NCBI RefSeq assembly: GCF_041248615.1
Contig: NZ_CP158426.1
DNA length: 64,000 bases
Direction: 5' to 3' (one strand)
Source of the DNA: Escherichia coli
GTDB lineage: Bacteria; Pseudomonadota; Gammaproteobacteria; Enterobacterales; Enterobacteriaceae
Each line of letters begins with the position of its first letter. Within the stretch, counting starts at the first letter, position 1. This document shows positions 3,868-28,862 of this stretch, piece after piece. Under the pieces are notes generated by a model that did not search any database, was not told the DNA's origin, and saw nothing but the letters and a program-made list of their open reading frames with translations. A program made the position numbers and the translations under genes.

Positions 3868-4748
3868 ACACTCCTCGTCAGTATTCTGGCGGCCATTGCA
3901 CTTAATCCCGGAGACATGCGGTTGAATGCTGTGCCGGCGGCGTTAAGCTGCCCGGAAACGGTATCCAGAGCACCTGCAATATTTCTTTTGTCCACACCAC
4001 TCAGCGCAGACTGTGCCTGCTGTACATACGTGGCTGCTTCGCTGGCTGTTCTGGCCAGACTGATGGCATCGGGCATGGATTCAGAGAGTGCGTTAAACGC
4101 CGGAACACTTTTCCCCAGAGCCCCGGAGATATTACCCAGTCCGCTCATCAGCCCCGGCACACGGGTCAGTGCGACAACGGGGTTATCCTTCATTTTCTGT
4201 GTCACCCGAACGGCGCTGATAGTGGTCTGGAGTACAGACTGCGCCTGTTTCGCATAGTTGACGCCGTTGCGGATGAACTGCGCCACCCCTGAAGGTGAAG
4301 GAATGGCACCGGAGACCGCCCCGACACCCGGGAGCTTCGTGCGTATTGCCGGTGGTTGCAGAGGATTTTTCGGATCACCGGTGTATTCCCGGAGAGACAC
4401 GGTGGCACTGACAGCCAGCACGTTACCGGTGCTGTCTGTCTGCTCGCTGGTTGCGGTCACATCGGTAATCACGAACCAGCCACGATAGTCACCGTTGCCG
4501 AAGACCAGCGCCAGTGCCTGATGGGCTTTCATGGCTGTTCGCAGTCTCGCCAGCTCCACATCGGGTACACAATAATGCTGATGGAAGACCAGACTTATCT
4601 GGATTTCGTCCAGCCTGTCGCCGACGAACTGCAGGCCAGGCTTACCCCCGATGCGGGCATGCTCCGCATAATCGACGCCGGACGTGGCCTCGAAGCCGTC
4701 CCAGTAGGTAATCAGCTCAAACTCAATATCACCCAGTACGGCAAACAT
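3864..4748 (-). CDS. Tail protein, P2 gpU-like / DNA circulation N-terminal-like
   Basis: 294-aa ORF immediately downstream of tape measure; N-terminus MFAVLGDIEFEL resembles the gpU family. Confidence 0.6.
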   Translation of the reverse strand: MFAVLGDIEFELITYWDGFEATSGVDYAEHARIGGKPGLQFVGDRLDEIQISLVFHQHYCVPDVELARLRTAMKAHQALALVFGNGDYRGWFVITDVTATSEQTDSTGNVLAVSATVSLREYTGDPKNPLQPPAIRTKLPGVGAVSGAIPSPSGVAQFIRNGVNYAKQAQSVLQTTISAVRVTQKMKDNPVVALTRVPGLMSGLGNISGALGKSVPAFNALSESMPDAISLARTASEAATYVQQAQSALSGVDKRNIAGALDTVSGQLNAAGTAFNRMSPGLSAMAARILTRSV

Positions 4749-7699
4749 CAGCGGTACTCCTTACGTTGTTTCTGAGCCAGCAGACGCTCCAGCATTTTTT
4801 CCAGCTCATGCAGACTCATATTCAGGGCACCAGTCAGTCCTGCAGGCGCTGTGGTTTCCCTGCCATTGAGGAAAAACTGAGGATTAAAGCTGACCTGGAT
4901 ACCACCAGACGTTCCACCGCCGGTTGCAGCTGCACCACGGCCTGAATATCCGGCAGTCAGGATTTCAGGCGAGGGGATACGGGGAACATCCGGTGTCATC
5001 TCATTTGCCAGACGTTGCCCTGGTAAAATCGATGCCCGGGTGGGGAGCGGAATAGCGGGCATGGAAGACAAACTATTGATTACGGCTCCGATCGCATTTT
5101 TAGCAGACGACATAAACACATTGATATCGGGCAACGGCATACTGAAGCGAACACCTGAAGTGTTATCCCGTATTTCTGGCCCCTGAATGCTCACGGGCAT
5201 TCTGGGGAGCAGTTCACTGGCCATTCGCTGCCCGGCCAGAGCTGCAAGCGGAGTGGTCCGCTGCAGGCCAATGGCGGCCCCCTGCGCGATATTGTCACCA
5301 AAGCCCATAAACACGCGGCTCGGCGAATGAATGCCCAGCTTTTCGCTGAACCAGCCACTGATGCTGTCGCCCATTCCGGTTACACTGGATTTGAGCGACT
5401 CCCATTTGTTTTTGATACCGTTAATCAGACCATCGACAAGATGGCCACCGAAGTCGGTAAACTTTGCCGGCAGATCAACACCAAGATATTTCAGCGCAGC
5501 TGCAAAGGCTTTATAGAGCAGACCTGCCGGCGACCAGTTAATCAGCAGCTTACCAGTTCCCGCGATACCGCCGTTAAAGGCTTCCTGAATGTCAGCCCAG
5601 CACTGTTTAAACCAGCTACTGATGCTGTCACCCATTCCGGTTACACTGGATTTGAGCGACCCCCATTTGTTTTTGATACCGTTAATCAGACCGTCGATAA
5701 GATGACCACCGAAGTCGGTGAACTTTGCCGGCAGAGTAACGCCGAAATATTTCAGCGCAGCCGCAAAGGCTTTATAGAGCAGACCTGCCGGCGACCAGTT
5801 AATCAGCAGCTTACCAGTTCCCGCGATACCGCCGTTAAAGGCTTCCTGAATGTCAGCCCAGCGCTGTTTAAACCAGCCACTGACTGCCCCCCAGTTGCGG
5901 TAGATAAGGTAAGCTGCTGCCGCGACAGCGGTGATAACGAGACCGATGGGATTCATCATCAGCGCACGTCCAATCCAGAGAACAGCACGTCCGGCGAGCA
6001 TAATTCCGCGAACCAGCCCCCCGGAGAGCACGCCACTCAGTGTTCTGGCTCCTCTGGCGACGGCGCTAAATCCGGTCACCAGCCAGCGGAGCTTACCGCC
6101 TTGCCCCAGTGCGAGCGACAGACGAAGCCAGTTGGCCCGAAGTAAAACAGCATTTTTCCAGACACTTACAAAGGGGGAAATAAGGAGATTCAGCCCCAGT
6201 TTGAGACCAACAGTCGCTATCTTAATCGCAAGGAGCGCACTGATGAGCTTAAAAGCCCCACTGACAAATTGCGGGTGAGTCGCTACCCAGTGTTTTGCCC
6301 CCTGAATGAGTGGAAGCAGTTCCTGAGTCAAAGAAATAAAAGATGGAGCTAATTGATCGCCCAGCGTAATTGCCAGATCGCGACTGCTGACCATAAGTGT
6401 TTTAGTGGCTTCAAGGGGAGATTTCAGCCGCTGATCATAAGCACTGGCAAGCAAATCGTTATCCGCAGCCCTGAGAGCACCGGCACGGATCTCTCGATAT
6501 CTGTCCATGTTGGCCAGCATCGGGCGGATAAATGCCATGACCTGCATATCCGCGAACATATCGCCCAGACCAAAGTTTTTCGCCAGAGCCTGAAGTGCCT
6601 CATCTCTTGCCGTATCATTCTTTATTTTCATGGCTGATTTGAAGCCGGCCAGCGCTTCGGGGCTTTTGGCATTGAGGTAACGTTCTATAACACTCAACAT
6701 CCCTTCAATCGGAGAGATCCCCGCAGCTTTATAACTCGCAATAGATCCCTGCAAATCAATACCCAGATCAGCAAACTGTTTCTGAGTATCGCGGGCAAAA
6801 ATTTTGGTAAGAAAGTTTTTAAAATTATTAGCTGCTTCGTCGGTGGAACCTGCACCGATTTTTGCTATCTGGAGACTGGCCCCGATTTCAGCAACAGCCT
6901 CTTTTCCACTGGCAATACCCGCCATCATTGGGGCCAGGGACTGCATCCACTTGACCTGATCCGGGATTTCAAATGACCCCTGGTCACCGGCATAAGCCAT
7001 AATATTCTGAACGGCACCAAAATCTCTGGCCGCACCTTTCAGGGAGTTTTGCCAGACTGCGGCCACTTTTGCCCAGTCCTGAGCAGACGTGCGTGTTGCC
7101 GTTGCCGCGCGGGCAATATCCGGCATCAGAAAACCGATATCTGACACATTATCAATATTGTCGCTGATGAGTGAACCCACCGCCTCCTGCAGCTCATCCT
7201 GATACTGATTGTATTTAAGCGCCCAGCCTTTTATCTGTCCGGCAAGTGCATCCCGCGTTTTATTGTCATATTTTGCGGTGATCGACATATCAATCATTTT
7301 GTCCTGAAAAGACATGGACTGCTGAACGGCAGGGGAAACCGTATGATAAACAGTCTGTGCCATGCCATACGCTTCAATCCCCTGACCATACAGCGCCATG
7401 CGGTTAGCTTTCAGCGCATCACTGGTAGCGGATGCCGCTGACAGACGGCGCTGCTGGCGCTCAATTTGCTCCATGGTGCGGCTTACCCGCAGCAGCTCGC
7501 TGTTGAGATGCTGCATCCGGGAAGAACCCAGTTGACCATAACGTTCTGTTGCACGGGTTAAAGCGTTCTGACGTTCCTGCAGGCGGCGTGAGGTATCGCT
7601 CAGGGAATCAAGCGCACGGCGGGTACCGCTCATTGCAGAACGGAATGTGCTGCCAATCATCCCGCCGATAACAACGCCGACTGAAAACTGTCCCGACAT
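4748..7699 (-). CDS. Tail tape measure protein
   Basis: 983-aa ORF with coiled-coil N-terminus, hydrophobic central segments and an internal 87-aa tandem duplication; follows the chaperone genes. Confidence 0.85.
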   Translation of the reverse strand: MSGQFSVGVVIGGMIGSTFRSAMSGTRRALDSLSDTSRRLQERQNALTRATERYGQLGSSRMQHLNSELLRVSRTMEQIERQQRRLSAASATSDALKANRMALYGQGIEAYGMAQTVYHTVSPAVQQSMSFQDKMIDMSITAKYDNKTRDALAGQIKGWALKYNQYQDELQEAVGSLISDNIDNVSDIGFLMPDIARAATATRTSAQDWAKVAAVWQNSLKGAARDFGAVQNIMAYAGDQGSFEIPDQVKWMQSLAPMMAGIASGKEAVAEIGASLQIAKIGAGSTDEAANNFKNFLTKIFARDTQKQFADLGIDLQGSIASYKAAGISPIEGMLSVIERYLNAKSPEALAGFKSAMKIKNDTARDEALQALAKNFGLGDMFADMQVMAFIRPMLANMDRYREIRAGALRAADNDLLASAYDQRLKSPLEATKTLMVSSRDLAITLGDQLAPSFISLTQELLPLIQGAKHWVATHPQFVSGAFKLISALLAIKIATVGLKLGLNLLISPFVSVWKNAVLLRANWLRLSLALGQGGKLRWLVTGFSAVARGARTLSGVLSGGLVRGIMLAGRAVLWIGRALMMNPIGLVITAVAAAAYLIYRNWGAVSGWFKQRWADIQEAFNGGIAGTGKLLINWSPAGLLYKAFAAALKYFGVTLPAKFTDFGGHLIDGLINGIKNKWGSLKSSVTGMGDSISSWFKQCWADIQEAFNGGIAGTGKLLINWSPAGLLYKAFAAALKYLGVDLPAKFTDFGGHLVDGLINGIKNKWESLKSSVTGMGDSISGWFSEKLGIHSPSRVFMGFGDNIAQGAAIGLQRTTPLAALAGQRMASELLPRMPVSIQGPEIRDNTSGVRFSMPLPDINVFMSSAKNAIGAVINSLSSMPAIPLPTRASILPGQRLANEMTPDVPRIPSPEILTAGYSGRGAAATGGGTSGGIQVSFNPQFFLNGRETTAPAGLTGALNMSLHELEKMLERLLAQKQRKEYR
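5330..5880. repeat. About 261-bp tandem duplication inside the tape measure gene (two copies plus the start of a third)
   Basis: Near-identical blocks beginning ccagccactgatgctgtc at about 5351 and 5612, partial at 5871; protein repeat WFKQ.WADIQEAFNGGIAGTGKLLINWSPAGLLYKAFAAALKY... twice. Confidence 0.85.
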
Positions 7700-7774
7700 A
7701 GTGGTTAACCTCCGGGGAAGGTGAAAAGACGTGAGGGAATAACGCAGAACAGCCGCTACTGGCGGCTGTCTGTA

Positions 7775-8032
7775 CTATGATTTGTCGCCGTACTCGCTTT
7801 TTATTTGCTCTTCAGCCTGCTCCAGCCACATCTCCAGATCGTCAGTATCGAGGGCATCAATCTCCCCCGGCTGAAACCGGAACCATCTCGCCAGCAGCCC
7901 CTGCGCCTGCGTCAGCGCCCTGGTTGCTCTCACCCATCCCCGTGATGAGCTGAAATCGTTTCTGTAACTGCAGGTAATCAGCCAGATCCATATTGTCGAG
8001 ATCTTCCGGGAGAAGACCAGTACTGCGGGCAA
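7775..8032 (-). CDS. Overlapping ORF likely expressed as a frameshift extension of the tail chaperone (E' -like)
   Basis: Open frame overlapping the 3' half of the chaperone gene and extending 28 codons past its stop; frame is +1 relative to the chaperone frame. Confidence 0.5.
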   Translation of the reverse strand: MPAVLVFSRKISTIWIWLITCSYRNDFSSSRGWVRATRALTQAQGLLARWFRFQPGEIDALDTDDLEMWLEQAEEQIKSEYGDKS

Positions 8033-8192
8033 TCAGCGGTTCGTCCCAGTCTGCCGGGTTTTTGCTGATTTTGCGCACCTGCTTCAGGTCTTTTACCGTC
8101 AGGCGTTTCAGTTCAACCAGCTCAATTCTGGTGCCTGCAGCAGTGGTGAAGGGATAAGACAATTTAAAAGTATCGGATGGGGTCTGTGACAT
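7857..8192 (-). CDS. Tail assembly chaperone (Mu/P2 E-like)
   Basis: 111-aa acidic ORF between tail tube and tape measure. Confidence 0.7.
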   Translation of the reverse strand: MSQTPSDTFKLSYPFTTAAGTRIELVELKRLTVKDLKQVRKISKNPADWDEPLIARSTGLLPEDLDNMDLADYLQLQKRFQLITGMGESNQGADAGAGAAGEMVPVSAGGD

Positions 8193-8289
8193 GATTGTGC
8201 TCCTGTGTAAGTTCAGGGCAGTATGTCGGGAGAAGCGCGTGACGGATATTAAAGGAGATTAAGAAGAAGGGGCCGGAGCCCCTGTGATG

Positions 8290-8571
8290 TCAGCAAGTGC
8301 GAAACCCCTTGCAGTTACGCAGGAAAGCGATGAGAAGCGTCTTTCCCTCAGATTTGCCGATGCCGGAGAACCAGTGGTCGGGAGGCTCCCATGCTTCAAT
8401 CAAATCCGCCAGTTTGCGGGCCTTTGAACGTGTGCAGTCAATCGGGTCATTGGTTTTACGGGTATTAAAAAGGGTTTCCACCCCCGGAATATCAAGGAGG
8501 GTAAACCACGTACCATTTGACATGCCCAGTGCCGCACATCGTCCTCCTTTATCCGTCAGTTCAACACTCAC
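8290..8571 (-). CDS. Hypothetical protein between tail tube and chaperone
   Basis: 93-aa ORF filling the gap after the tube gene stop; no recognisable family. Confidence 0.35.
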   Translation of the reverse strand: MSVELTDKGGRCAALGMSNGTWFTLLDIPGVETLFNTRKTNDPIDCTRSKARKLADLIEAWEPPDHWFSGIGKSEGKTLLIAFLRNCKGFRTC

Positions 8572-8573
8572 CG

Positions 8574-9095
8574 TCAGCCCCCGATATTGATACGGTAGTC
8601 AGTCAGCTGATCAACGCCACCGACGCGGAAGATGTTGGCCAGATAGTCCAGTTGCAGCAGCTCTTCACCATCCAGTACCTGTCTGATATACGTGCAGGTG
8701 AAGCTACTGGAGAACTCGGCGTTCTCGTGCTGTTTGAACGTCCCCAGCGGGTTCTTCTTGAACATAATCGTCAGGAAGGTGACCAGCGGGATTTCGTCAA
8801 TCAGCCCCTGCGAGCTGTAGCGCTGGACGCTGGAACGACACTGCAGTGCCAGCGACCTGTACGGGTTCGCGGCAGACAGCATCGCATCGCGGTAAAAGCT
8901 GTTCCATTTGATTTCGCCTTCCAGTTTGTCAAAACCAGCCGGGAGTTCCACCTTACCCACCATCCCCAGCGCCTTGTGTTCCTGCATAATCATGGAGACA
9001 TCGGGGAGTTTAACTTCCTCAGCCCGTCCCAGCAGGTTAGTACCATCCAGATAGATGTTGGCATTCGTGATGCGGTTTATCTCAATCTTTGACAT
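8574..9095 (-). CDS. Tail tube protein (contractile tail)
   Basis: 173-aa ORF immediately downstream of the sheath gene. Confidence 0.8.
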   Translation of the reverse strand: MSKIEINRITNANIYLDGTNLLGRAEEVKLPDVSMIMQEHKALGMVGKVELPAGFDKLEGEIKWNSFYRDAMLSAANPYRSLALQCRSSVQRYSSQGLIDEIPLVTFLTIMFKKNPLGTFKQHENAEFSSSFTCTYIRQVLDGEELLQLDYLANIFRVGGVDQLTDYRINIGG

Positions 9096-10522
9096 CAGTT
9101 GCCCCCTTTCAGGGTTAACAGGTATTCCGAGGTGATCTCAGTCTCATACGTCAGTCGCTCCAGCGGTGGCGGCGGCGTGTATTTGTAGCTCAGCAACAGG
9201 TGACCGGCTGCCAGTTCCGTCTCCGGATTACGGGCCGGATCAAACCAGCAGTTGAAACCCAGCAGTGCACCATCACTAATCATCTTTCGACCGTAGGCGT
9301 TGACCGACTCCGTCAGTGCATCAATCAGCGCCTGAGTAATCGGCATGTCGATGTACTGCTGACTGAAGTAACGAATGGACTCGTTGATCACATCACCGGT
9401 GCGGCGAACATTCTCAAAGTTACGCATATGGGTGACCGTTGGCCATGCTGCCGTCCGGTTACCACACAGACGAAGGCCGCTGCCATAACTGCTGAATACC
9501 GTGGTGATCCCCTGTTCGTTAAGCAGGTTCACCTCACTCTGTGGGTCATCAATCATCGCGGACAGCTGGCGCTCCACACCGGTGATCCCCAGAATCTCCT
9601 GATTGGAGGACGACCACCAGTAGCCCTTGTCCAGATCGACTCTGGCACGCAGACCTGCTGCACGCTGGCTGAGCGGCTCCAGACGCTCCGTGTTTGTCAC
9701 CGGGTCATATACCTTCACATGCGGATAGCACAGACGGACGCGGTCGGAGCTGGTATTGAAGTTAATGGTGCCTTCCGGGCCACGACCTGCCAGAGCCTGT
9801 GCAAAGGTGGTACCGACAGGCGCATCAATGTAGGTTACCGCTCCCAGCTTCTCTGTCATGGCGATAAGCTCAACTGCTACACTCTTCTGGGTGCAGAACA
9901 CCGGCGCAATCAGAATTTTGGCAAAATAGCCGTACAGGTTGAAGCTGTCGTTAAGCAGCTTCATGCCGGTTCGGTTTCCGGCGCTGTTCACCCCGCCGAT
10001 GATGTCCGCCGCAGTCACCTTCGACGGGTCCGCGTACTCATAGCTCACCTTCACGCTGCCACTGGCCTCAATAGCCTTGCCCAGGTTCGTGAGCACACCC
10101 GTCTGCGCATCAACACGGTAGTCCGTGTTCGCCGTGTGGGTGGTGCTGCCTTCACTGTTTTTCACCACCACATTAGCGACAACCGGATGCGCCAGTCTGG
10201 CCTGCCCTGTCGATTTGTCAAAGGTAACCACTTCACCCTGGATCGCCGTTTTATGTTTCGCCGGGTCGAGGACGTTAATGACCAGAACGGTGCCTGCACC
10301 ATGGTCATAAATCGCATCCAGCGCCTGCGGAATGGTAAAGCCGGTGAACTGGCTGCCAAATGCCGCTGCGTCTTTCTCAGACAGGCACTGTACCAGCGTA
10401 TTGACGTCCCCCATCGGGGCGGTACCAATCAGGCCAATAACGGCAGATTTCACCGTTTTAACCGGGCGGGCTCCGTTTTCCACCTCAATGGTTTCGACGC
10501 CATGCAGATAGTTAGCTGCCAT
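9095..10522 (-). CDS. Tail sheath protein (contractile tail)
   Basis: 475-aa ORF; recalled similarity to Mu L / P2 FI sheath family. Confidence 0.85.
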   Translation of the reverse strand: MAANYLHGVETIEVENGARPVKTVKSAVIGLIGTAPMGDVNTLVQCLSEKDAAAFGSQFTGFTIPQALDAIYDHGAGTVLVINVLDPAKHKTAIQGEVVTFDKSTGQARLAHPVVANVVVKNSEGSTTHTANTDYRVDAQTGVLTNLGKAIEASGSVKVSYEYADPSKVTAADIIGGVNSAGNRTGMKLLNDSFNLYGYFAKILIAPVFCTQKSVAVELIAMTEKLGAVTYIDAPVGTTFAQALAGRGPEGTINFNTSSDRVRLCYPHVKVYDPVTNTERLEPLSQRAAGLRARVDLDKGYWWSSSNQEILGITGVERQLSAMIDDPQSEVNLLNEQGITTVFSSYGSGLRLCGNRTAAWPTVTHMRNFENVRRTGDVINESIRYFSQQYIDMPITQALIDALTESVNAYGRKMISDGALLGFNCWFDPARNPETELAAGHLLLSYKYTPPPPLERLTYETEITSEYLLTLKGGN

Positions 10523-22767: not shown

Positions 22768-23532
22768 ATGAAAATGCAGACATTACCCATCGTTCCATGG
22801 ATTGGTGGCAAACGTCGCCTGGCAAAACACATCCTGCCGCTGTTTCCGGCGCATGAATGTTACGTGGAGCCGTTCTGCGGCGCAGCAGCGCTCTATTTTC
22901 TTAAGACACCTGGTAAGCTCGAAGTCATTAACGATATCAATGGTGAACTGGTAAATCTGTATCGGGTGGTAAAACATCATCTGGAAGAATTTGTCCGCCA
23001 GTTCAAATGGGCGCTGGTCAGCCGGCAGATCTACAAATGGCTGCAGATCACCCCGACAGAAACACTGACGGATATCCAGCGTGCAGCACGGTTCTACTAC
23101 CTCCAGAAGCAGGCGTTTGGCGGCAAGGTGGCAGAGCACAGCTTCGGCACCTCCACCACATCCCCGCCACGCTTCAACCTGCTGCGTATCGAGGAAGAAC
23201 TGTCAGCGGCACACCTGCGGCTTTCCAGAACGGTGATAGAACACATGGACTGGCAACAGTGCATTGAGCGCTATGACCGTCCGCACACGCTGTTCTACTG
23301 TGACCCGCCGTATCTGGGTACAGAAGGCTATGGTGTGGATTTTCCTGAAGGGAACTACTCGCGGCTGGCAGAGCTGGCCCGGTGCATCAGAGGAAAGATG
23401 ATAATTTCGGTGAACGACATCCCGCAGATGCGCGAGGTGTTCACTGGACTGAACATACAGACAGTGAACATCAACTACAGTCTGGCAGGCAAATCAACTC
23501 CACGCCGTGAGCTGGTGATCTGCAATTTCTAA
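22768..23532 (+). CDS. DNA adenine methyltransferase, Dam family (orphan, phage-borne)
   Basis: 254-aa ORF with DPPY catalytic motif (FYCDPPY) and Dam-like N-terminus (PIVPWIGGKRRL). Confidence 0.85.
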   Translation: MKMQTLPIVPWIGGKRRLAKHILPLFPAHECYVEPFCGAAALYFLKTPGKLEVINDINGELVNLYRVVKHHLEEFVRQFKWALVSRQIYKWLQITPTETLTDIQRAARFYYLQKQAFGGKVAEHSFGTSTTSPPRFNLLRIEEELSAAHLRLSRTVIEHMDWQQCIERYDRPHTLFYCDPPYLGTEGYGVDFPEGNYSRLAELARCIRGKMIISVNDIPQMREVFTGLNIQTVNINYSLAGKSTPRRELVICNF

Positions 23533-25915: not shown

Positions 25916-27685
25916 ATGACCCCGGCACTGACTGAAAAACTTGTTGAAACAGCCCGCGCGGCACGTAATGCAGGGCATGGTAAACGCGGTGCAATATACG
26001 ACGCTGCCTGTGCTGAACTTGGCATGTCCCGCGCCACTCTGCTGCGCAGGCTGAAGGAGGTCTCTGTGACTGATAAACGCAAAAAACGCGCCGATGCCGG
26101 ACGCAGCACCCTGACCCGCGACGAAGCCGCGCTGATATCTGCCACACTACGTGAGGCCACCCGCAAGAACGGTAAGCGTCTCTATTCCATCGCGGATGCA
26201 GTGGAAACCCTGCGGGCTAACGGCTTTATCTCCGCAGGCAGAACAGATGAAACTACCGGTGAGTTTTTCCCGTTGTCCGAAGATGCCATCAGTCGTGCCC
26301 TGCGTAACTATGGCCTGCACCCGGAACAACTGGATGCCCCTGCACCGCATACCGAAGTGGCCAGTCTGCACCCCAATCATGTCTGGCAGATTGACGCCTC
26401 ACTCTGCACGCTTTACTACCTGAGCAATGGACATAAAGGGCTGCAGGTGATGGACAGCGCGAAATTCTACAAGAACAAGCCCGCTAACCTTGCCCGTATC
26501 GCCAGTGACCGCGTGTGGAGTTACGAGATTACCGACCATGCCAGCGGCTGGATTTACGTTGAGTATGTGACGGGTGCGGAATCCGGTGAGAACCTGTGTT
26601 CTGTGCTTATCAACGCCATGCAGGAGCGTGGCGGCGCAGACGTGCTGCACGGCGTGCCAAAAATACTCTATCTCGACCCCGGCTCGGCAAACACCGCGGG
26701 TATGACGAAAAACATGTGCCGCTCACTGGGCATCGACCTGATAGCGCACAAGCCGCATAACGCCCGCGCCACCGGACAGGTGGAAAAGGCGCGTGACATT
26801 ATCGAACGCAAGCTGGAGCCGGGTCTGAAGTTCCGGCCGGTTCACAGTCTGGAAGAACTCAACGCGCTGGCCGCGAAATGGCGCAGCCACTTTAACGCCA
26901 CGGCTGTTCACAGCCGCCACGGTAAAACCCGCACGGATATCTGGCTGAAGATTACTGCTGAGCAGCTGAAAAAAGCGCCTTCCGTTGAGGTATGTCGTGA
27001 ACTGGCTGTGGCGGGACCAGAACTCCGCAAAGTCACGCCAAAACTTCGTGTCTCGTTCCGGGGCACTGAATTTGACGTATCAACGGTACCGGGCGTACTG
27101 GTCGGTGAAAAACTGATGATTACCCGTAACCCGTGGCGCAGCGATGTGGCACAGGTGGTTCTGACCGGTGAGGACGGCCACGAGACGTTCTTCCTGGTCG
27201 AAGAGGTCAGAAAGAACGAGTTTGGCTTTGCTGAAGGCGCGGCGGTATTTGGCGAAAGTTACAAAGCCCTGCCGGAAACCCCGGCGCAGATGGCGGCAAA
27301 AGAAACCGAAGCGCTGGTCACCGGTACAGACAACGCCGCAGATGCAGCTGCCGCACGCAAGGCGAAGGCGCTGCCGTTCGGCGGGCGGCTTGACCCGTAT
27401 AAACATATTGATGACGCCACACTTCCGGCCTGTATACCGAAGCGTGGTCAGGCCTCTGACGTACGCGGACCGCGCACTGAACAGCGTCCCATGACTCATG
27501 TGGAGGCCGCGAAAGCCCTGCGCGGGAAGTTTAGCGCAAACGGCCTGACCTGGACGCCGGAACATTACCGCCAGTTAACAGCACAGTACCCGGACGGCGT
27601 ACCGGAAGCCGCACTGGATGAAGTCATGGCCACGCTGACCACGCCGGCCCGCAGCAGCGTTATCAGCATTGTTAACGGCAACTGA
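25916..27685 (+). CDS. DDE transposase A (Mu-like, rve/integrase-core type)
   Basis: 589-aa ORF; N-terminal HTH, catalytic core with candidate D (WQIDAS), D (LYLDPGSANT) and E (GQVEKARD) residues. Confidence 0.8.
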   Translation: MTPALTEKLVETARAARNAGHGKRGAIYDAACAELGMSRATLLRRLKEVSVTDKRKKRADAGRSTLTRDEAALISATLREATRKNGKRLYSIADAVETLRANGFISAGRTDETTGEFFPLSEDAISRALRNYGLHPEQLDAPAPHTEVASLHPNHVWQIDASLCTLYYLSNGHKGLQVMDSAKFYKNKPANLARIASDRVWSYEITDHASGWIYVEYVTGAESGENLCSVLINAMQERGGADVLHGVPKILYLDPGSANTAGMTKNMCRSLGIDLIAHKPHNARATGQVEKARDIIERKLEPGLKFRPVHSLEELNALAAKWRSHFNATAVHSRHGKTRTDIWLKITAEQLKKAPSVEVCRELAVAGPELRKVTPKLRVSFRGTEFDVSTVPGVLVGEKLMITRNPWRSDVAQVVLTGEDGHETFFLVEEVRKNEFGFAEGAAVFGESYKALPETPAQMAAKETEALVTGTDNAADAAAARKAKALPFGGRLDPYKHIDDATLPACIPKRGQASDVRGPRTEQRPMTHVEAAKALRGKFSANGLTWTPEHYRQLTAQYPDGVPEAALDEVMATLTTPARSSVISIVNGN

Positions 27686-27695
27686 GGAGGGAAAC

Positions 27696-28862
27696 ATGCT
27701 GGTACTGAAGCAGCAACTGAAAGAGGCCCGTATTCCACAGGCGGTGGCGGCGAGAGCTGTCGATGTTTCTGAGGCCACGCTGGCCCAGATTGTGAATCAT
27801 AACGCGTGGCCCCGCACCAGCCCCGGAGAAGTGCGCCGGCGTCTTGCGTCCTGGCTGGAAAGCCAGGGGATTGATACAACGAAGAGTTTTGATGCTGTAC
27901 AGGGCGCGGCCACGCCCCGTACAGCGGATACCACAGATAAAACGAGCCTCAGTGAGGAAGAGAATATGTTACTCAAAAAACAGGTGTTATTTCCAGCAAC
28001 CAAAAAAGCGTTTGGTCTTTTCCGTGACCCGTTCGCCGATGAAGCCATGCAGGGTTCTGATGATGTGTTCACCACCCCGGACATTCGCTACGTGCGTGAG
28101 GCGCTGTACCAGACAGCCCGTCATGGTGGGTTTATGGCCGTCATCGGTGAGTCCGGTGCGGGTAAATCCACGCTGCGCCGCGACCTGACTGAACGTATTA
28201 ACCGCGAGAATGCGCCGGTAATTGTTATCGAGCCATACATCATCGCTATGGAAGACAACGATGTGAAAGGGAAAACCCTGAAGGCAGCAGCTATTGCCGA
28301 AGCCATTATCAGTACCATCGCACCACTGGAAAGCATCAGACGCAGTCAGGACGCCCGCTTTCGCCAGTTGCATCGCGTCCTGAAAGACAGCAGCCAGGCG
28401 GGGTTCAGCCACGTTCTGGTGATTGAGGAGGCCCACAGTCTGCCCATTCCGACACTGAAACACCTCAAACGCTTTTTTGAGCTGGAGTCCGGTTTCAAAA
28501 AACTGCTGTCCATCGTGCTGATTGGCCAGCCGGAACTGGCGACAAAACTGTCTGAACGCAATATGGAAGTCCGTGAAGTCGTTCAGCGCTGTGAGGTGGT
28601 CGAACTTCTGCCTCTGGACAATAACCTTGAAGAATTTCTGACGTTCAAACTGCAACGGGCCGGTAAACAACTGACGGACATTATGGACGCCAGCGCAGTG
28701 GATGCCATACGTGCCCGCCTGAGCAATCCGGGAAGTCATCGTAAAAATATGGTCAGCCTGCTGTATCCGCTGGCCGTCAGTAACCTGGTAATAGCCGCCA
28801 TGAATCTGGCCGCTGAAATCGGGGTTCCACAGGTCAACGCTGACGTTGTCAAAGGAGTTTAA
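27696..28862 (+). CDS. Transposition protein B, AAA+ ATPase
   Basis: Start at ATG 27696 after aggaggg; Walker A GESGAGKST and Walker B VLVIEEAH; directly downstream of the transposase. Confidence 0.8.
   Translation: MLVLKQQLKEARIPQAVAARAVDVSEATLAQIVNHNAWPRTSPGEVRRRLASWLESQGIDTTKSFDAVQGAATPRTADTTDKTSLSEEENMLLKKQVLFPATKKAFGLFRDPFADEAMQGSDDVFTTPDIRYVREALYQTARHGGFMAVIGESGAGKSTLRRDLTERINRENAPVIVIEPYIIAMEDNDVKGKTLKAAAIAEAIISTIAPLESIRRSQDARFRQLHRVLKDSSQAGFSHVLVIEEAHSLPIPTLKHLKRFFELESGFKKLLSIVLIGQPELATKLSERNMEVREVVQRCEVVELLPLDNNLEEFLTFKLQRAGKQLTDIMDASAVDAIRARLSNPGSHRKNMVSLLYPLAVSNLVIAAMNLAAEIGVPQVNADVVKGV

What the first reader, a model, noticed from the sequence alone, without database searches (positions are those of the whole stretch)
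7775..8192. Tail chaperone pair in the Mu-like prophage implies a +1 (or -2) rather than -1 programmed frameshift
The chaperone ORF (7857-8192) and the overlapping extension ORF (7775-8032) are offset so that the extension frame is +1 relative to the chaperone frame; the coordinates show codon starts at 8033 and 8032. Most tail chaperone pairs use a -1 slip. The minus-strand sequence CC-GGGGG-AG immediately before the chaperone stop (plus-strand C-run 7864-7868) would allow Gly-tRNA to re-pair one base downstream, giving ...SAG then EIDALDTDDLEMWLEQ... I could not identify a canonical X-XXY-YYZ heptamer in the correct frame.
Basis: seen in the sequence. Interest (0 to 1): 0.5.

Follow-up and report, generated by a model that had tools for sequence, protein, structure and literature searches.

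The report
Tail chaperone +1 frameshift, slip site relocated

Summary
The chaperone ORF (7857-8192, minus strand, Pfam PF10109) overlaps a downstream ORF that lies in the +1 frame. That offset is kept in every relative of this clade examined (about 100 unique loci).

The proposed slip site, the G5 run at 7864-7868, is not supported. In 46 of 101 unique relatives the chaperone stop lies upstream of that position. Only 28 of 101 have a run of four or more G there. Substitution patterns show that the +1 frame is already the selected frame from 7936 downstream.

Stop codons in relatives confine the shift to 7963-7935. The only slippery motif shared by all of them in that interval is CGA_UUU_C, with UUU_C at 7955-7952. 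TTT plus C is invariant in all +1 loci, including phages of GC-rich hosts that otherwise avoid TTT.

The predicted product is a 138-aa fusion with the junction ...LQKRF|SSSRGWVR...ARWFRFQPGEIDAL.... No experiment supports it.

A second candidate is GGG_A at 7940-7937.

Tail chaperone frameshifts in the -1, -2 (Mu) and +1 directions are already documented, so this is an unannotated member of a known kind. RefSeq misses it in 636 complete E. coli genomes.

The parts
7857..8192 (-). Tail assembly chaperone ORF (the 'G' analogue, P2 gpE type), 111 aa. Only residues 1 to about 85 are conserved. The C-terminal tail (ESNQGADAGAGAAGEMVPVSAGGD) is unconstrained in this frame.
   Evidence: PF10109 Phage_TAC_7, E = 5e-22, 78 bits against a cutoff of 25. 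phrog_166, E = 4e-32. Frame-0 pN/pS is 0.36 in the domain and at least 1.05 after window 7936.
7775..7951 (-). The +1-frame coding segment of the predicted fusion (the 'T' or E'-like extension), 58 codons plus the stop: SSSRGWVRATRALTQAQGLLARWFRFQPGEIDALDTDDLEMWLEQAEEQIKSEYGDKS.
   Evidence: phrog_8286, E = 1.8e-25. PF06528 P2_GpE, E = 0.01, below its cutoff. In the +1 frame, synonymous/nonsynonymous counts are 70/95 (anchor +22..+52) and 87/28 (+53..+96); in frame 0 they are 18/122 and 8/103. The AlphaFold2 model of the fusion has pLDDT 82-94 over this part.
7952..7958 (-). Best candidate slip site, CGA_UUU_C. Peptidyl-tRNA-Phe would move from UUU (7955-7953) to UUC (7954-7952), and the next codon read would be AGC (7951-7949).
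   Evidence: TTT plus C is found in 83 of 83 unique loci that match a strict T motif, and in all Burkholderia, Pseudomonas and Ralstonia relatives. The preceding codon is CGA in 70 of 83, although CGA makes up 7% of Arg codons in the prophage. BcepMu structural genes use TTT for only 7 of 55 Phe codons.
7935..7963 (-). Interval within which the shift must occur, if its position is conserved across the clade.
   Evidence: The latest stop in the T frame ends 9 nt upstream of the Phe codon (L143, L228). The earliest chaperone stop starts 18 nt downstream of it (L212, L222).
7937..7940 (-). Second candidate slip site, GGG_A: a +1 slip of tRNA-Gly from GGG to GGA, or a -2 slip onto CGG.
   Evidence: The codon is GGG in 47 of 51 enteric sequences and sits exactly where selection changes frame. 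The motif is absent in BcepMu, Ralstonia, Salmonella SARB27, L054, L060, L128 and L130.
7864..7868 (-). It most likely just encodes Pro-Gly-Glu (CCG GGG GAG) of the extension.
   Evidence: The chaperone stop lies upstream of this position in 46 of 101 unique relatives, and only 28 of 101 have at least four G there.
4748..7699 (-). Tape measure protein gene, 983 aa, immediately downstream of the pair.
   Evidence: PF10145, E = 2e-20; phrog_28.
8574..9095 (-). Tail tube gene (P2 FII type), upstream of the pair. The sheath gene is at 9095-10522.
   Evidence: PF04985, E = 3e-53; sheath PF04984 and PF17482.

Best explanation
The locus is the tail-assembly chaperone module of a BcepMu-type transposable prophage.

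Most ribosomes translate the 111-aa chaperone. Only its first 85 or so residues form the functional domain. By analogy with lambda gpG and P2 gpE, that domain coats the tape measure protein.

A small fraction of ribosomes shift +1 at CGA_UUU_C (window 7958-7952). Peptidyl-tRNA-Phe (anticodon GAA) leaves the wobble-paired UUU and re-pairs with the Watson-Crick-matched UUC one base downstream. Translation then continues in the +1 frame.

The result is a 138-aa fusion, ...DYLQLQKRF-SSSRGWVRATRALTQAQGLLARWFRFQPGEIDALDTDDLEMWLEQAEEQIKSEYGDKS. By analogy with lambda gpGT and P2 gpE+E', its E'-like C-terminal helices recruit the tube protein to the tape measure.

Shown here: the frame offset, its conservation, where selection switches frame, the bounds on the shift position, and the invariance of UUU_C.

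Inferred: that UUU_C is the actual slip site, that the direction is +1 rather than -2, that efficiency is low, and the roles of the two products.
For: 1. Gene order is sheath, tube, a small ORF, chaperone plus extension, tape measure.

2. The extension is in the +1 frame in 54 of 54 close loci and about 100 unique wider loci. It has no start codon of its own in the relevant stretch.

3. Selection changes frame:
- In the chaperone domain, pN/pS is 0.36 in frame 0 and 1.06 in frame +1.
- From the Trp codon at 7936-7934 onward, pN/pS is 0.44 in frame +1 and 1.22 in frame 0.
- Tree-based counts for the +1 frame give p = 8e-7 for anchor +22..+52 and p = 4e-31 for +53..+96.

4. Chaperone stops in relatives fall as early as 18 nt after the Phe codon. 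Stops in the T frame fall as late as 9 nt before it.

5. Within that 29-nt interval, TTT followed by C is invariant in every +1 locus.
- The next amino acid varies (Gln, His, Arg or Leu), but its codon always begins with C.
- TTT is kept in GC-rich Burkholderia, Pseudomonas and Ralstonia phages, whose neighbouring genes use TTT for 0-13% of Phe codons.

6. The rare Arg codon CGA precedes the site in 70 of 83 loci.

7. UUU_C is an experimentally established +1 site in influenza PA-X, UCC_UUU_CGU (PMC3498833). UUU is among the most slippery P-site codons in the prfB context (PMC10885494).

8. Members of the same Pfam family shift close to this point of the chaperone domain: P2 and Wolbachia WO at GGT_TTT_TTG, and Vibrio Valp1 at G_GGT_TTT, all -1.

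9. The AlphaFold2 model of the UUU_C fusion has mean pLDDT 86.6 and pTM 0.74. The +1-encoded residues 81-138 form confident helices.
Against: - There is no protein, ribosome-profiling or reporter evidence for any fusion product.
- No recognised stimulator was found. The 0-frame A-site codon (CAG, CAA, CGC) is not rare, there is no Shine-Dalgarno-like element upstream, and there is no conserved downstream RNA structure (alifold -2.1 kcal/mol, no covariation).
- Between 7951 and 7937, frame 0 still shows synonymous variation at the Thr and Gly codons, while the +1 frame (SSSRG, SKSLG, RKSQG) is variable. Substitution data therefore cannot separate UUU_C from GGG_A in the enteric subgroup.
- A shift at UUU_C would leave the last five positions of the PF10109 profile out of the fusion.
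- The bounds assume that all relatives are functional phages and that all shift at the homologous place.
Confidence: 0.6

Rival explanations
1. The shift occurs at GGG_A (window 7940-7937). Peptidyl-tRNA-Gly would slip +1 from GGG to GGA, giving ...FQLITG-WVR.... Alternatively it would slip -2 onto CGG, as in Mu, giving ...FQLITGG-WVR....
For: - The site lies exactly where frame-0 constraint ends and +1 constraint begins.
- The codon is GGG in 47 of 51 enteric sequences, although GGG makes up only 20% of Gly codons locally.
- The fusion would keep the whole PF10109 domain.
- Mu's proven -2 site is also a G run, CGG_GGG_CGA, lying two codons before a Trp-Leu-Arg motif that resembles the Trp-Val-Arg here (PMC3498833).
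Against: - The motif is missing in BcepMu and phiE255 (AGC A), Ralstonia (TTC G), Salmonella SARB27 (AGC A), L128 and L130 (GGA T), and L054 and L060 (GGC C), all of which keep the +1 extension.
- In L212 the interval between UUU_C and the chaperone stop (CGC CTC ATG CTG GGT TAA) contains no GGG_N motif.
- Conservation of GGG is also explained by dual coding, because its third base is the second base of the Gly codon in the +1 frame.
Confidence: 0.2
2. One reading: Gly-tRNA slips +1 (or -2) on the G5 run CC-GGGGG-AG (7870-7862) just before the chaperone stop, giving ...VSAG(G)-EIDAL....
For: - The run exists, and tRNA-Gly could re-pair perfectly on it.
- In this particular prophage, frame-0 ribosomes do reach it.
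- Mu's -2 site is a similar G run near the chaperone stop.
- Indel variants fused exactly at this homopolymer exist in raw assemblies, so the run is slippery for polymerases or sequencers.
Against: - The chaperone stop lies upstream of this position in 46 of 101 unique relatives.
- The run is present in only 28 of 101.
- The 22 codons upstream of it are under strong purifying selection in the +1 frame: 87 synonymous to 28 nonsynonymous changes, against 8 to 103 in frame 0.
- Such a fusion would lack the near-invariant LLARWFRFQP segment, which aligns to the P2 GpE' Pfam profile and is modelled as a confident helix.
Confidence: 0.05
3. No programmed frameshift occurs. The +1 ORF is translated separately, or is a relic, or the offset is a sequencing, assembly or transcription-slippage artefact.
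For: Public annotation lists only the 111-aa protein. Some records call the +1 ORF as a separate small gene: BcepMu gp42, phiE255 gp16 and Komp_PAO1_1 CDS0016.
Against: - The offset is identical in 636 complete E. coli genomes and in about 100 unique, divergent loci.
- There is no conserved start codon or ribosome-binding site in the +1 frame between the bounding stops.
- The +1 peptide is under purifying selection from well upstream of any possible internal start.
- No A or T homopolymer long enough for transcriptional slippage is present.
Confidence: 0.05

Closest known systems
Phage Mu gp41 tail assembly chaperone with its -2 programmed frameshift (Xu, Hendrix and Duda 2004, as cited in PMC3498833, PMC5009743 and PMC2628397)
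   Same: - It lies in the same position, between the tube and tape-measure genes of a transposable myophage.
- The extension is in the +1/-2 frame.
- Efficiency is low (2.2% reported).
- The extension begins with a Trp-hydrophobic-Arg motif.
   Different: - Mu's chaperone belongs to PF23746 (Gp41_Mu) and matches PF10109 only marginally. The protein here is a clear PF10109 member with no Gp41_Mu hit.
- Mu slips on CGG_GGG_CGA. No such motif is conserved at the junction here.
- The extensions show no detectable sequence similarity.
Phage P2 gpE / gpE+E' (-1 frameshift at GGT_TTT_TTG)
   Same: - Both chaperones belong to Pfam PF10109, and the extension here is E'-like (PF06528), with the shared motif W/F-x-x-x-P-x-E-[IL]...L...W.
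- The tail module is the same: FI, FII, E, T, U, X, D.
- The P2 slip codon is a Phe about three profile positions from the Phe codon proposed here.
   Different: The direction is opposite (-1 in P2), on a canonical heptamer. Here the extension is in the +1 frame and no heptamer is usable.
Lambda gpG / gpGT (-1 at G_GGA_AAG)
   Same: The functional logic, as established for lambda, is two products in a fixed ratio: the short one coats the tape measure, and the long one links it to the tube subunit (PMC5009743).
   Different: There is no sequence homology, lambda is a siphovirus, and the shift is -1. A relative of the present family, Pasteurella phage AFS-2018a, does use G_GGA_AAG.
Influenza A PA-X +1 frameshift at UCC_UUU_CGU, and the bacterial prfB +1 site
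   Same: The proposed chemistry is the same: P-site tRNA-Phe moves +1 from UUU to UUC (PMC3498833). UUU is a good +1 P-site codon in the prfB context (PMC10885494).
   Different: PA-X relies on a rare A-site codon. prfB relies on a stop codon plus a Shine-Dalgarno-like element. Neither feature was found here.

Membership tests
Tail assembly chaperone G/GT-type frameshift pair (Xu et al. 2004 definition) | The pair is located between the major tail/tube gene and the tape measure gene. | tested here: met
   Tube at 8574-9095, the pair at 7775-8192, tape measure at 4748-7699, all on the minus strand.
Tail assembly chaperone G/GT-type frameshift pair (Xu et al. 2004 definition) | There are two overlapping ORFs, and the second has no start of its own and is reachable only by a frame change near the end of the first. 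| tested here: met
   The overlap is 176 nt and the second ORF is in the +1 frame, with no conserved start codon. The same holds in about 100 unique relatives.
Tail assembly chaperone G/GT-type frameshift pair (Xu et al. 2004 definition) | A slippery sequence lies in the overlap. | tested here: inconclusive
   There is no -1 heptamer. The invariant CGA_UUU_C is a plausible +1 site supported by comparative data only.
Tail assembly chaperone G/GT-type frameshift pair (Xu et al. 2004 definition) | Both the short and the fused protein are made, in a fixed low ratio, and both are needed for tail assembly. | not testable with these tools
   This needs proteomics, reporter assays or genetics.
Pfam PF10109 Phage_TAC_7 (P2 E / Mu 41 / 14) | The score exceeds the family gathering threshold. 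| tested here: met
   74.8-78.1 bits against a cutoff of 25; residues 8-81 match profile positions 1-75 of 79.
Pfam PF06528 Phage_P2_GpE (the E' extension) | The score exceeds the family gathering threshold. | tested here: not met
   15.7 bits against a cutoff of 23 (E = 0.01), although the match covers profile positions 4-36 of 37. Homology is likely but membership is not demonstrated. phrog_8286 matches at E = 1.8e-25.
Mu-type -2 frameshift chaperone (PF23746 Gp41_Mu, slip at CGG_GGG_CGA) | A Gp41_Mu domain, and a G-run slip site at the junction. | tested here: not met
   There is no PF23746 hit. The G runs are not conserved at the junction across the clade.
Canonical -1 X_XXY_YYZ chaperone frameshift | The extension lies in the -1 frame downstream of an in-frame heptamer. 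| tested here: not met
   The extension is in the +1 frame. The -1 frame yields a short peptide with no family hit.

The most novel reading that the evidence does not exclude
A whole clade of BcepMu-type myophages of Enterobacteria, Burkholderia, Pseudomonas and Ralstonia would use a strictly conserved minimal +1 signal, CGA_UUU_C, with no stop codon, rare A-site codon, Shine-Dalgarno-like element or RNA structure. The rare CGA codon, read through an inosine:A wobble pair, might act from the E site to loosen frame maintenance. This would be a bacterial counterpart of the influenza PA-X site. It would also show one protein family switching between -1, -2 and +1 solutions at nearly the same codon.
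Probability: 0.45. Interest if true: 0.45.

Novelty: new member of a known kind. Interest (0 to 1): 0.3.

Why it matters
Annotation: RefSeq and GenBank list only the short chaperone for this prophage family, which is present in 636 of 5426 complete E. coli genomes. The BcepMu reference record appears to assign the G and T roles to the wrong ORFs. A defined junction would allow the fusion protein to be annotated.

Mechanism: if CGA_UUU_C is confirmed, it would add a well-sampled natural bacterial +1 site that lacks the usual stimulators. It would also give a clean comparative example of one chaperone family (PF10109) reaching the same two-product outcome through -1, -2 and +1 shifts.

This is a refinement of established biology, not a new principle.

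Tried and rejected
1. Fused 138-aa ORFs in public protein sets (P0007-P0011, P0023, P0060, P0113). The frame change falls at different places, including the G5 homopolymer. They look like indel or assembly errors and say nothing about the ribosomal site.

2. Profile comparison of the clade alignment with P2 gpE by hhalign. The probability was 0.3%, which is uninformative. Pfam profile coordinates were used instead.

3. Search for a conserved RNA stimulator downstream of the site. RNAalifold on 25 diverse sequences gave -2.1 kcal/mol with no covariation, and single-sequence z-scores were mostly insignificant.

4. Solved-structure searches. No PDB sequence match was found for the fusion alignment, and no Foldseek match better than E = 2.7.

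5. Xu et al. 2004 is not held in the library. Mu's -2 shift is therefore cited through PMC3498833, PMC5009743 and PMC2628397.

6. No paper in the library describes the BcepMu-type chaperone frameshift.

7. Considered and rejected:
- Separate initiation of the +1 ORF, because no conserved start exists.
- Transcriptional slippage, because there is no long A or T run.
- A -2 slip at UUU, because tRNA-Phe would land on GAU.

Full report
**What is in the window.** On the minus strand the genes run in this order: tail sheath (9095-10522), tail tube (8574-9095), a 93-aa ORF (8290-8571, DUF7739), a 111-aa ORF (7857-8192), and a 983-aa tape measure protein (4748-7699).
- The 111-aa protein is a clear member of Pfam PF10109, the family named 'tail assembly chaperone E, or 41 or 14' (E = 5e-22).
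- The region is 99.4% identical to Escherichia phage PhiKM, which is classified in Bcepmuvirus.
- The window also carries a Mu-type portal, a Mu F-like protein, an rve-domain transposase and an adjacent AAA ATPase. 'Mu-like prophage' is therefore accurate, although the tail module is of the P2 type.

**Checking the observation.** The frame arithmetic is right: (8192-8032) mod 3 = 1, so the overlapping ORF 7775-8032 is in the +1 (or -2) frame.
- The G5 run is at 7868-7864, just before the TGA stop.
- The -1 frame gives only a short peptide with no family hit.
- The +1 peptide hits phrog_8286 (E = 1.8e-25) and weakly matches the P2 E' family PF06528 (E = 0.01, below its cutoff).
- In 54 of 54 related viral contigs the homologous extension is in the +1 frame.

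**Why the proposed slip site is wrong.**
- In many relatives the chaperone ORF ends at a TAG 21 nt upstream of the G5 run (...GGT GGT T|TAG|ATT TCA GCC GGG GGA G). The +1-frame peptide ARWFRFQPGEID is nevertheless unchanged. The nucleotide differences (TTT AGA versus TTC CGG) are synonymous only in the +1 frame.
- More distant relatives end the chaperone even earlier...FAGLAA* in L057 and L058, and ...GDAV* in L060.
- Across 101 unique loci, 46 have the chaperone stop upstream of the Pro-x-Glu codons that carry the run. Only 28 have at least four G there.

**Where selection changes frame.** Positions below are relative to the Phe codon of the conserved motif RFQ (window 7955-7953), using 60 unique enteric sequences.

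| Region | Measure | Frame 0 | Frame +1 |
|---|---|---|---|
| Chaperone domain | Nei-Gojobori pN/pS | 0.36 | 1.06 |
| Trp codon (7936-7934) to the common stop | Nei-Gojobori pN/pS | 1.22 | 0.44 |
| +22..+52 | Synonymous/nonsynonymous, parsimony on NJ tree | 18/122 | 70/95 (p = 8e-7) |
| +53..+96 | Synonymous/nonsynonymous, parsimony on NJ tree | 8/103 | 87/28 (p = 4e-31) |

- One subgroup (L119, L122, L126, L134) shows six substitutions right after the Trp codon. All are synonymous in the +1 frame and nonsynonymous in frame 0.
- The junction therefore lies at or upstream of 7936, at least 66 nt before the G5 run.

**Bounding the site.** A wider scan brought in Burkholderia, Pseudomonas, Ralstonia and other relatives, down to about 30% chaperone identity.
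- All those with a recognisable extension have it in the +1 frame.
- The latest stop codon in the extension frame ends 9 nt upstream of the Phe codon (Ralstonia L143, and L228).
- The earliest chaperone stop begins 18 nt downstream of it (L212, L222).
- If the position is conserved, the shift must occur within window 7963-7935.

**The candidate site.** Within that interval the Phe codon is TTT and the next base is C in every +1 locus.
- The count is 83 of 83 with a strict extension motif, plus all BcepMu-type and Pseudomonas-type sequences.
- The following amino acid varies (Gln, His, Arg, Leu), but its codon always starts with C.
- TTT is retained in GC-rich phages whose neighbouring structural genes use TTT for 7 of 55 (BcepMu), 0 of 12 (Bise) and 0 of 10 (phiE255) Phe codons.
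- The preceding codon is the rare CGA in 70 of 83 loci, although CGA makes up 7% of Arg codons in this prophage.
- These are nucleotide-level constraints that the chaperone's protein sequence does not explain.
- UUU_C lets tRNA-Phe (anticodon GAA) exchange a G:U wobble pair for a G:C pair one base downstream. This is the established chemistry of the influenza PA-X site UCC_UUU_CGU (PMC3498833). UUU is also a good +1 P-site codon in the prfB context (PMC10885494).
- The predicted product is 138 aa, with the junction ...LQLQKRF|SSSRGWVRATRALTQAQGLLARWFRFQPGEIDAL....
- An AlphaFold2 model built on 33 such fusions has mean pLDDT 86.6 and pTM 0.74. The +1-encoded residues 81-138 form confident helices. 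This shows that the segment behaves like real protein. It does not discriminate between junctions a few codons apart.

**The main rival.** GGG_A at 7940-7937 sits exactly at the change-point in the enteric subgroup.
- The codon is GGG in 47 of 51 sequences.
- The motif is absent from BcepMu, phiE255, Ralstonia, Salmonella SARB27 and several enteric relatives that keep the extension.
- Its conservation can also be explained by dual coding.

**What is missing.**
- No stimulatory element was found. The A-site codon is common, there is no Shine-Dalgarno-like sequence, and there is no conserved downstream structure.
- There is no experimental evidence for the fusion.
- The roles of the two proteins are inferred from lambda G/GT and P2 E/E+E' (PMC5009743, and general knowledge of those systems).

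**Comparison with known systems.**
- Reviews state that tailed phages use -1, -2 or +1 shifts to make the two chaperone forms (PMC5009743).
- Mu's gpGT analogue is the classic natural -2 case, at about 2.2% efficiency (PMC3498833; also PMC2628397).
- Hundreds of +1 chaperone frameshifts are annotated in actinophages (PMC10885494).
- I confirmed that Mu's extension is in the +1/-2 frame, downstream of CGG_GGG_CGA. Mu's chaperone, however, is PF23746 with only a marginal PF10109 match.
- Within PF10109 the direction varies:
  - P2 and Wolbachia WO use GGT_TTT_TTG (-1).
  - Vibrio Valp1 uses G_GGT_TTT (-1).
  - Pasteurella AFS-2018a uses the lambda heptamer G_GGA_AAG (-1).
  - The BcepMu-type clade uses +1.
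- The P2 slip Phe maps about three profile positions from the Phe proposed here.

**Verdict.** The frame offset is real, conserved and functional-looking, but it is an instance of a known phenomenon.
- A better-supported site, CGA_UUU_C at 7958-7952, is proposed.
- The practical value lies in annotation. RefSeq lists only the 111-aa protein in 636 of 5426 complete E. coli genomes. The BcepMu record labels gp42 and gp43, rather than gp41 and gp42, as the G/T pair.

Noticed in passing
window 5349-5883: The tape measure gene contains a tandem duplication of 261 nt in 2.0 copies at 94% identity, which is an 87-aa repeat in the protein. It would lengthen the tail ruler. It probably also explains the 'sequencing gap' that splits the tape measure gene in the PhiKM record.
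   Followed up: partly
window 8268-8283 (minus strand): There is a terminator-like GC-rich hairpin followed by a T-rich tail (AGGGGCTCCGGCCCCT TCTTCTT). It lies directly after the 93-aa DUF7739 ORF and about 75 nt before the chaperone start, inside the tail operon.
   Followed up: no
window 8290-8571 (minus strand); L060 1066-1344: The slot between the tube and chaperone genes holds a small variable ORF. Here it is DUF7739/phrog_1239. In L060 it is a PF13876 (Phage_gp49_66) protein. In L057 and L058 there is none. It looks like a cargo or moron position.
   Followed up: no
window 7749-7769 (minus strand): A perfect 8-bp hairpin, ACAGCCGC-CAGTA-GCGGCTGT, begins 6 nt after the extension's TAG stop, in the 75-nt gap before the tape measure start. 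It is seen in the sequence and did not meet the terminator scan's T-tail rule.
   Followed up: no
L056 (BcepMu NC_005882) 2103-2864: The GenBank record labels gp42 as the lambda-G analogue and gp43 as its slippage product. Here gp41 is the PF10109 chaperone, and gp42 is the +1-frame ORF carrying the E'-like motif QPSEIAELDMDDYW. The G/T assignment in the record therefore appears to be shifted by one gene.
   Followed up: partly
proteins P0004, P0007-P0011, P0016, P0023, P0041, P0060, P0113: Public assemblies (mostly Logan and ENA) contain 135-147-aa 'fused' versions of this chaperone. The frame change falls at various places, several of them at the G5 homopolymer. These are most likely indel errors and could mislead annotation.
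   Followed up: partly
L019 / L079: One close relative (98% identical) has a premature TAG in the chaperone tail, 33 nt after the Phe codon. The C-to-T change is synonymous in the +1 frame. This is consistent with the chaperone tail being dispensable.
   Followed up: partly
L057 1926-2186, L058 1944-2204, L060 1884-2183, L147 1182-1472, L148 1263-1505: Many relatives carry an 80-99-aa ORF on the opposite strand between the chaperone extension and the tape measure gene. It is annotated 'membrane protein' in phiE255. The window's prophage lacks it.
   Followed up: no
L144 (Pasteurella AFS-2018a), L149 (Vibrio Valp1), L150 (Wolbachia WO): Other members of the same chaperone family have the E'-like extension in the -1 frame, behind G_GGA_AAG, G_GGT_TTT and GGT_TTT_TTG respectively. 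None of these is annotated as a frameshift in its record.
   Followed up: partly
window 22768-23532 and 25916-28862: The prophage also encodes a D12-class Dam-like methyltransferase, an rve-domain transposase (589 aa) and an overlapping AAA ATPase (397 aa). This is the expected BcepMu-type replication and transposition module.
   Followed up: no
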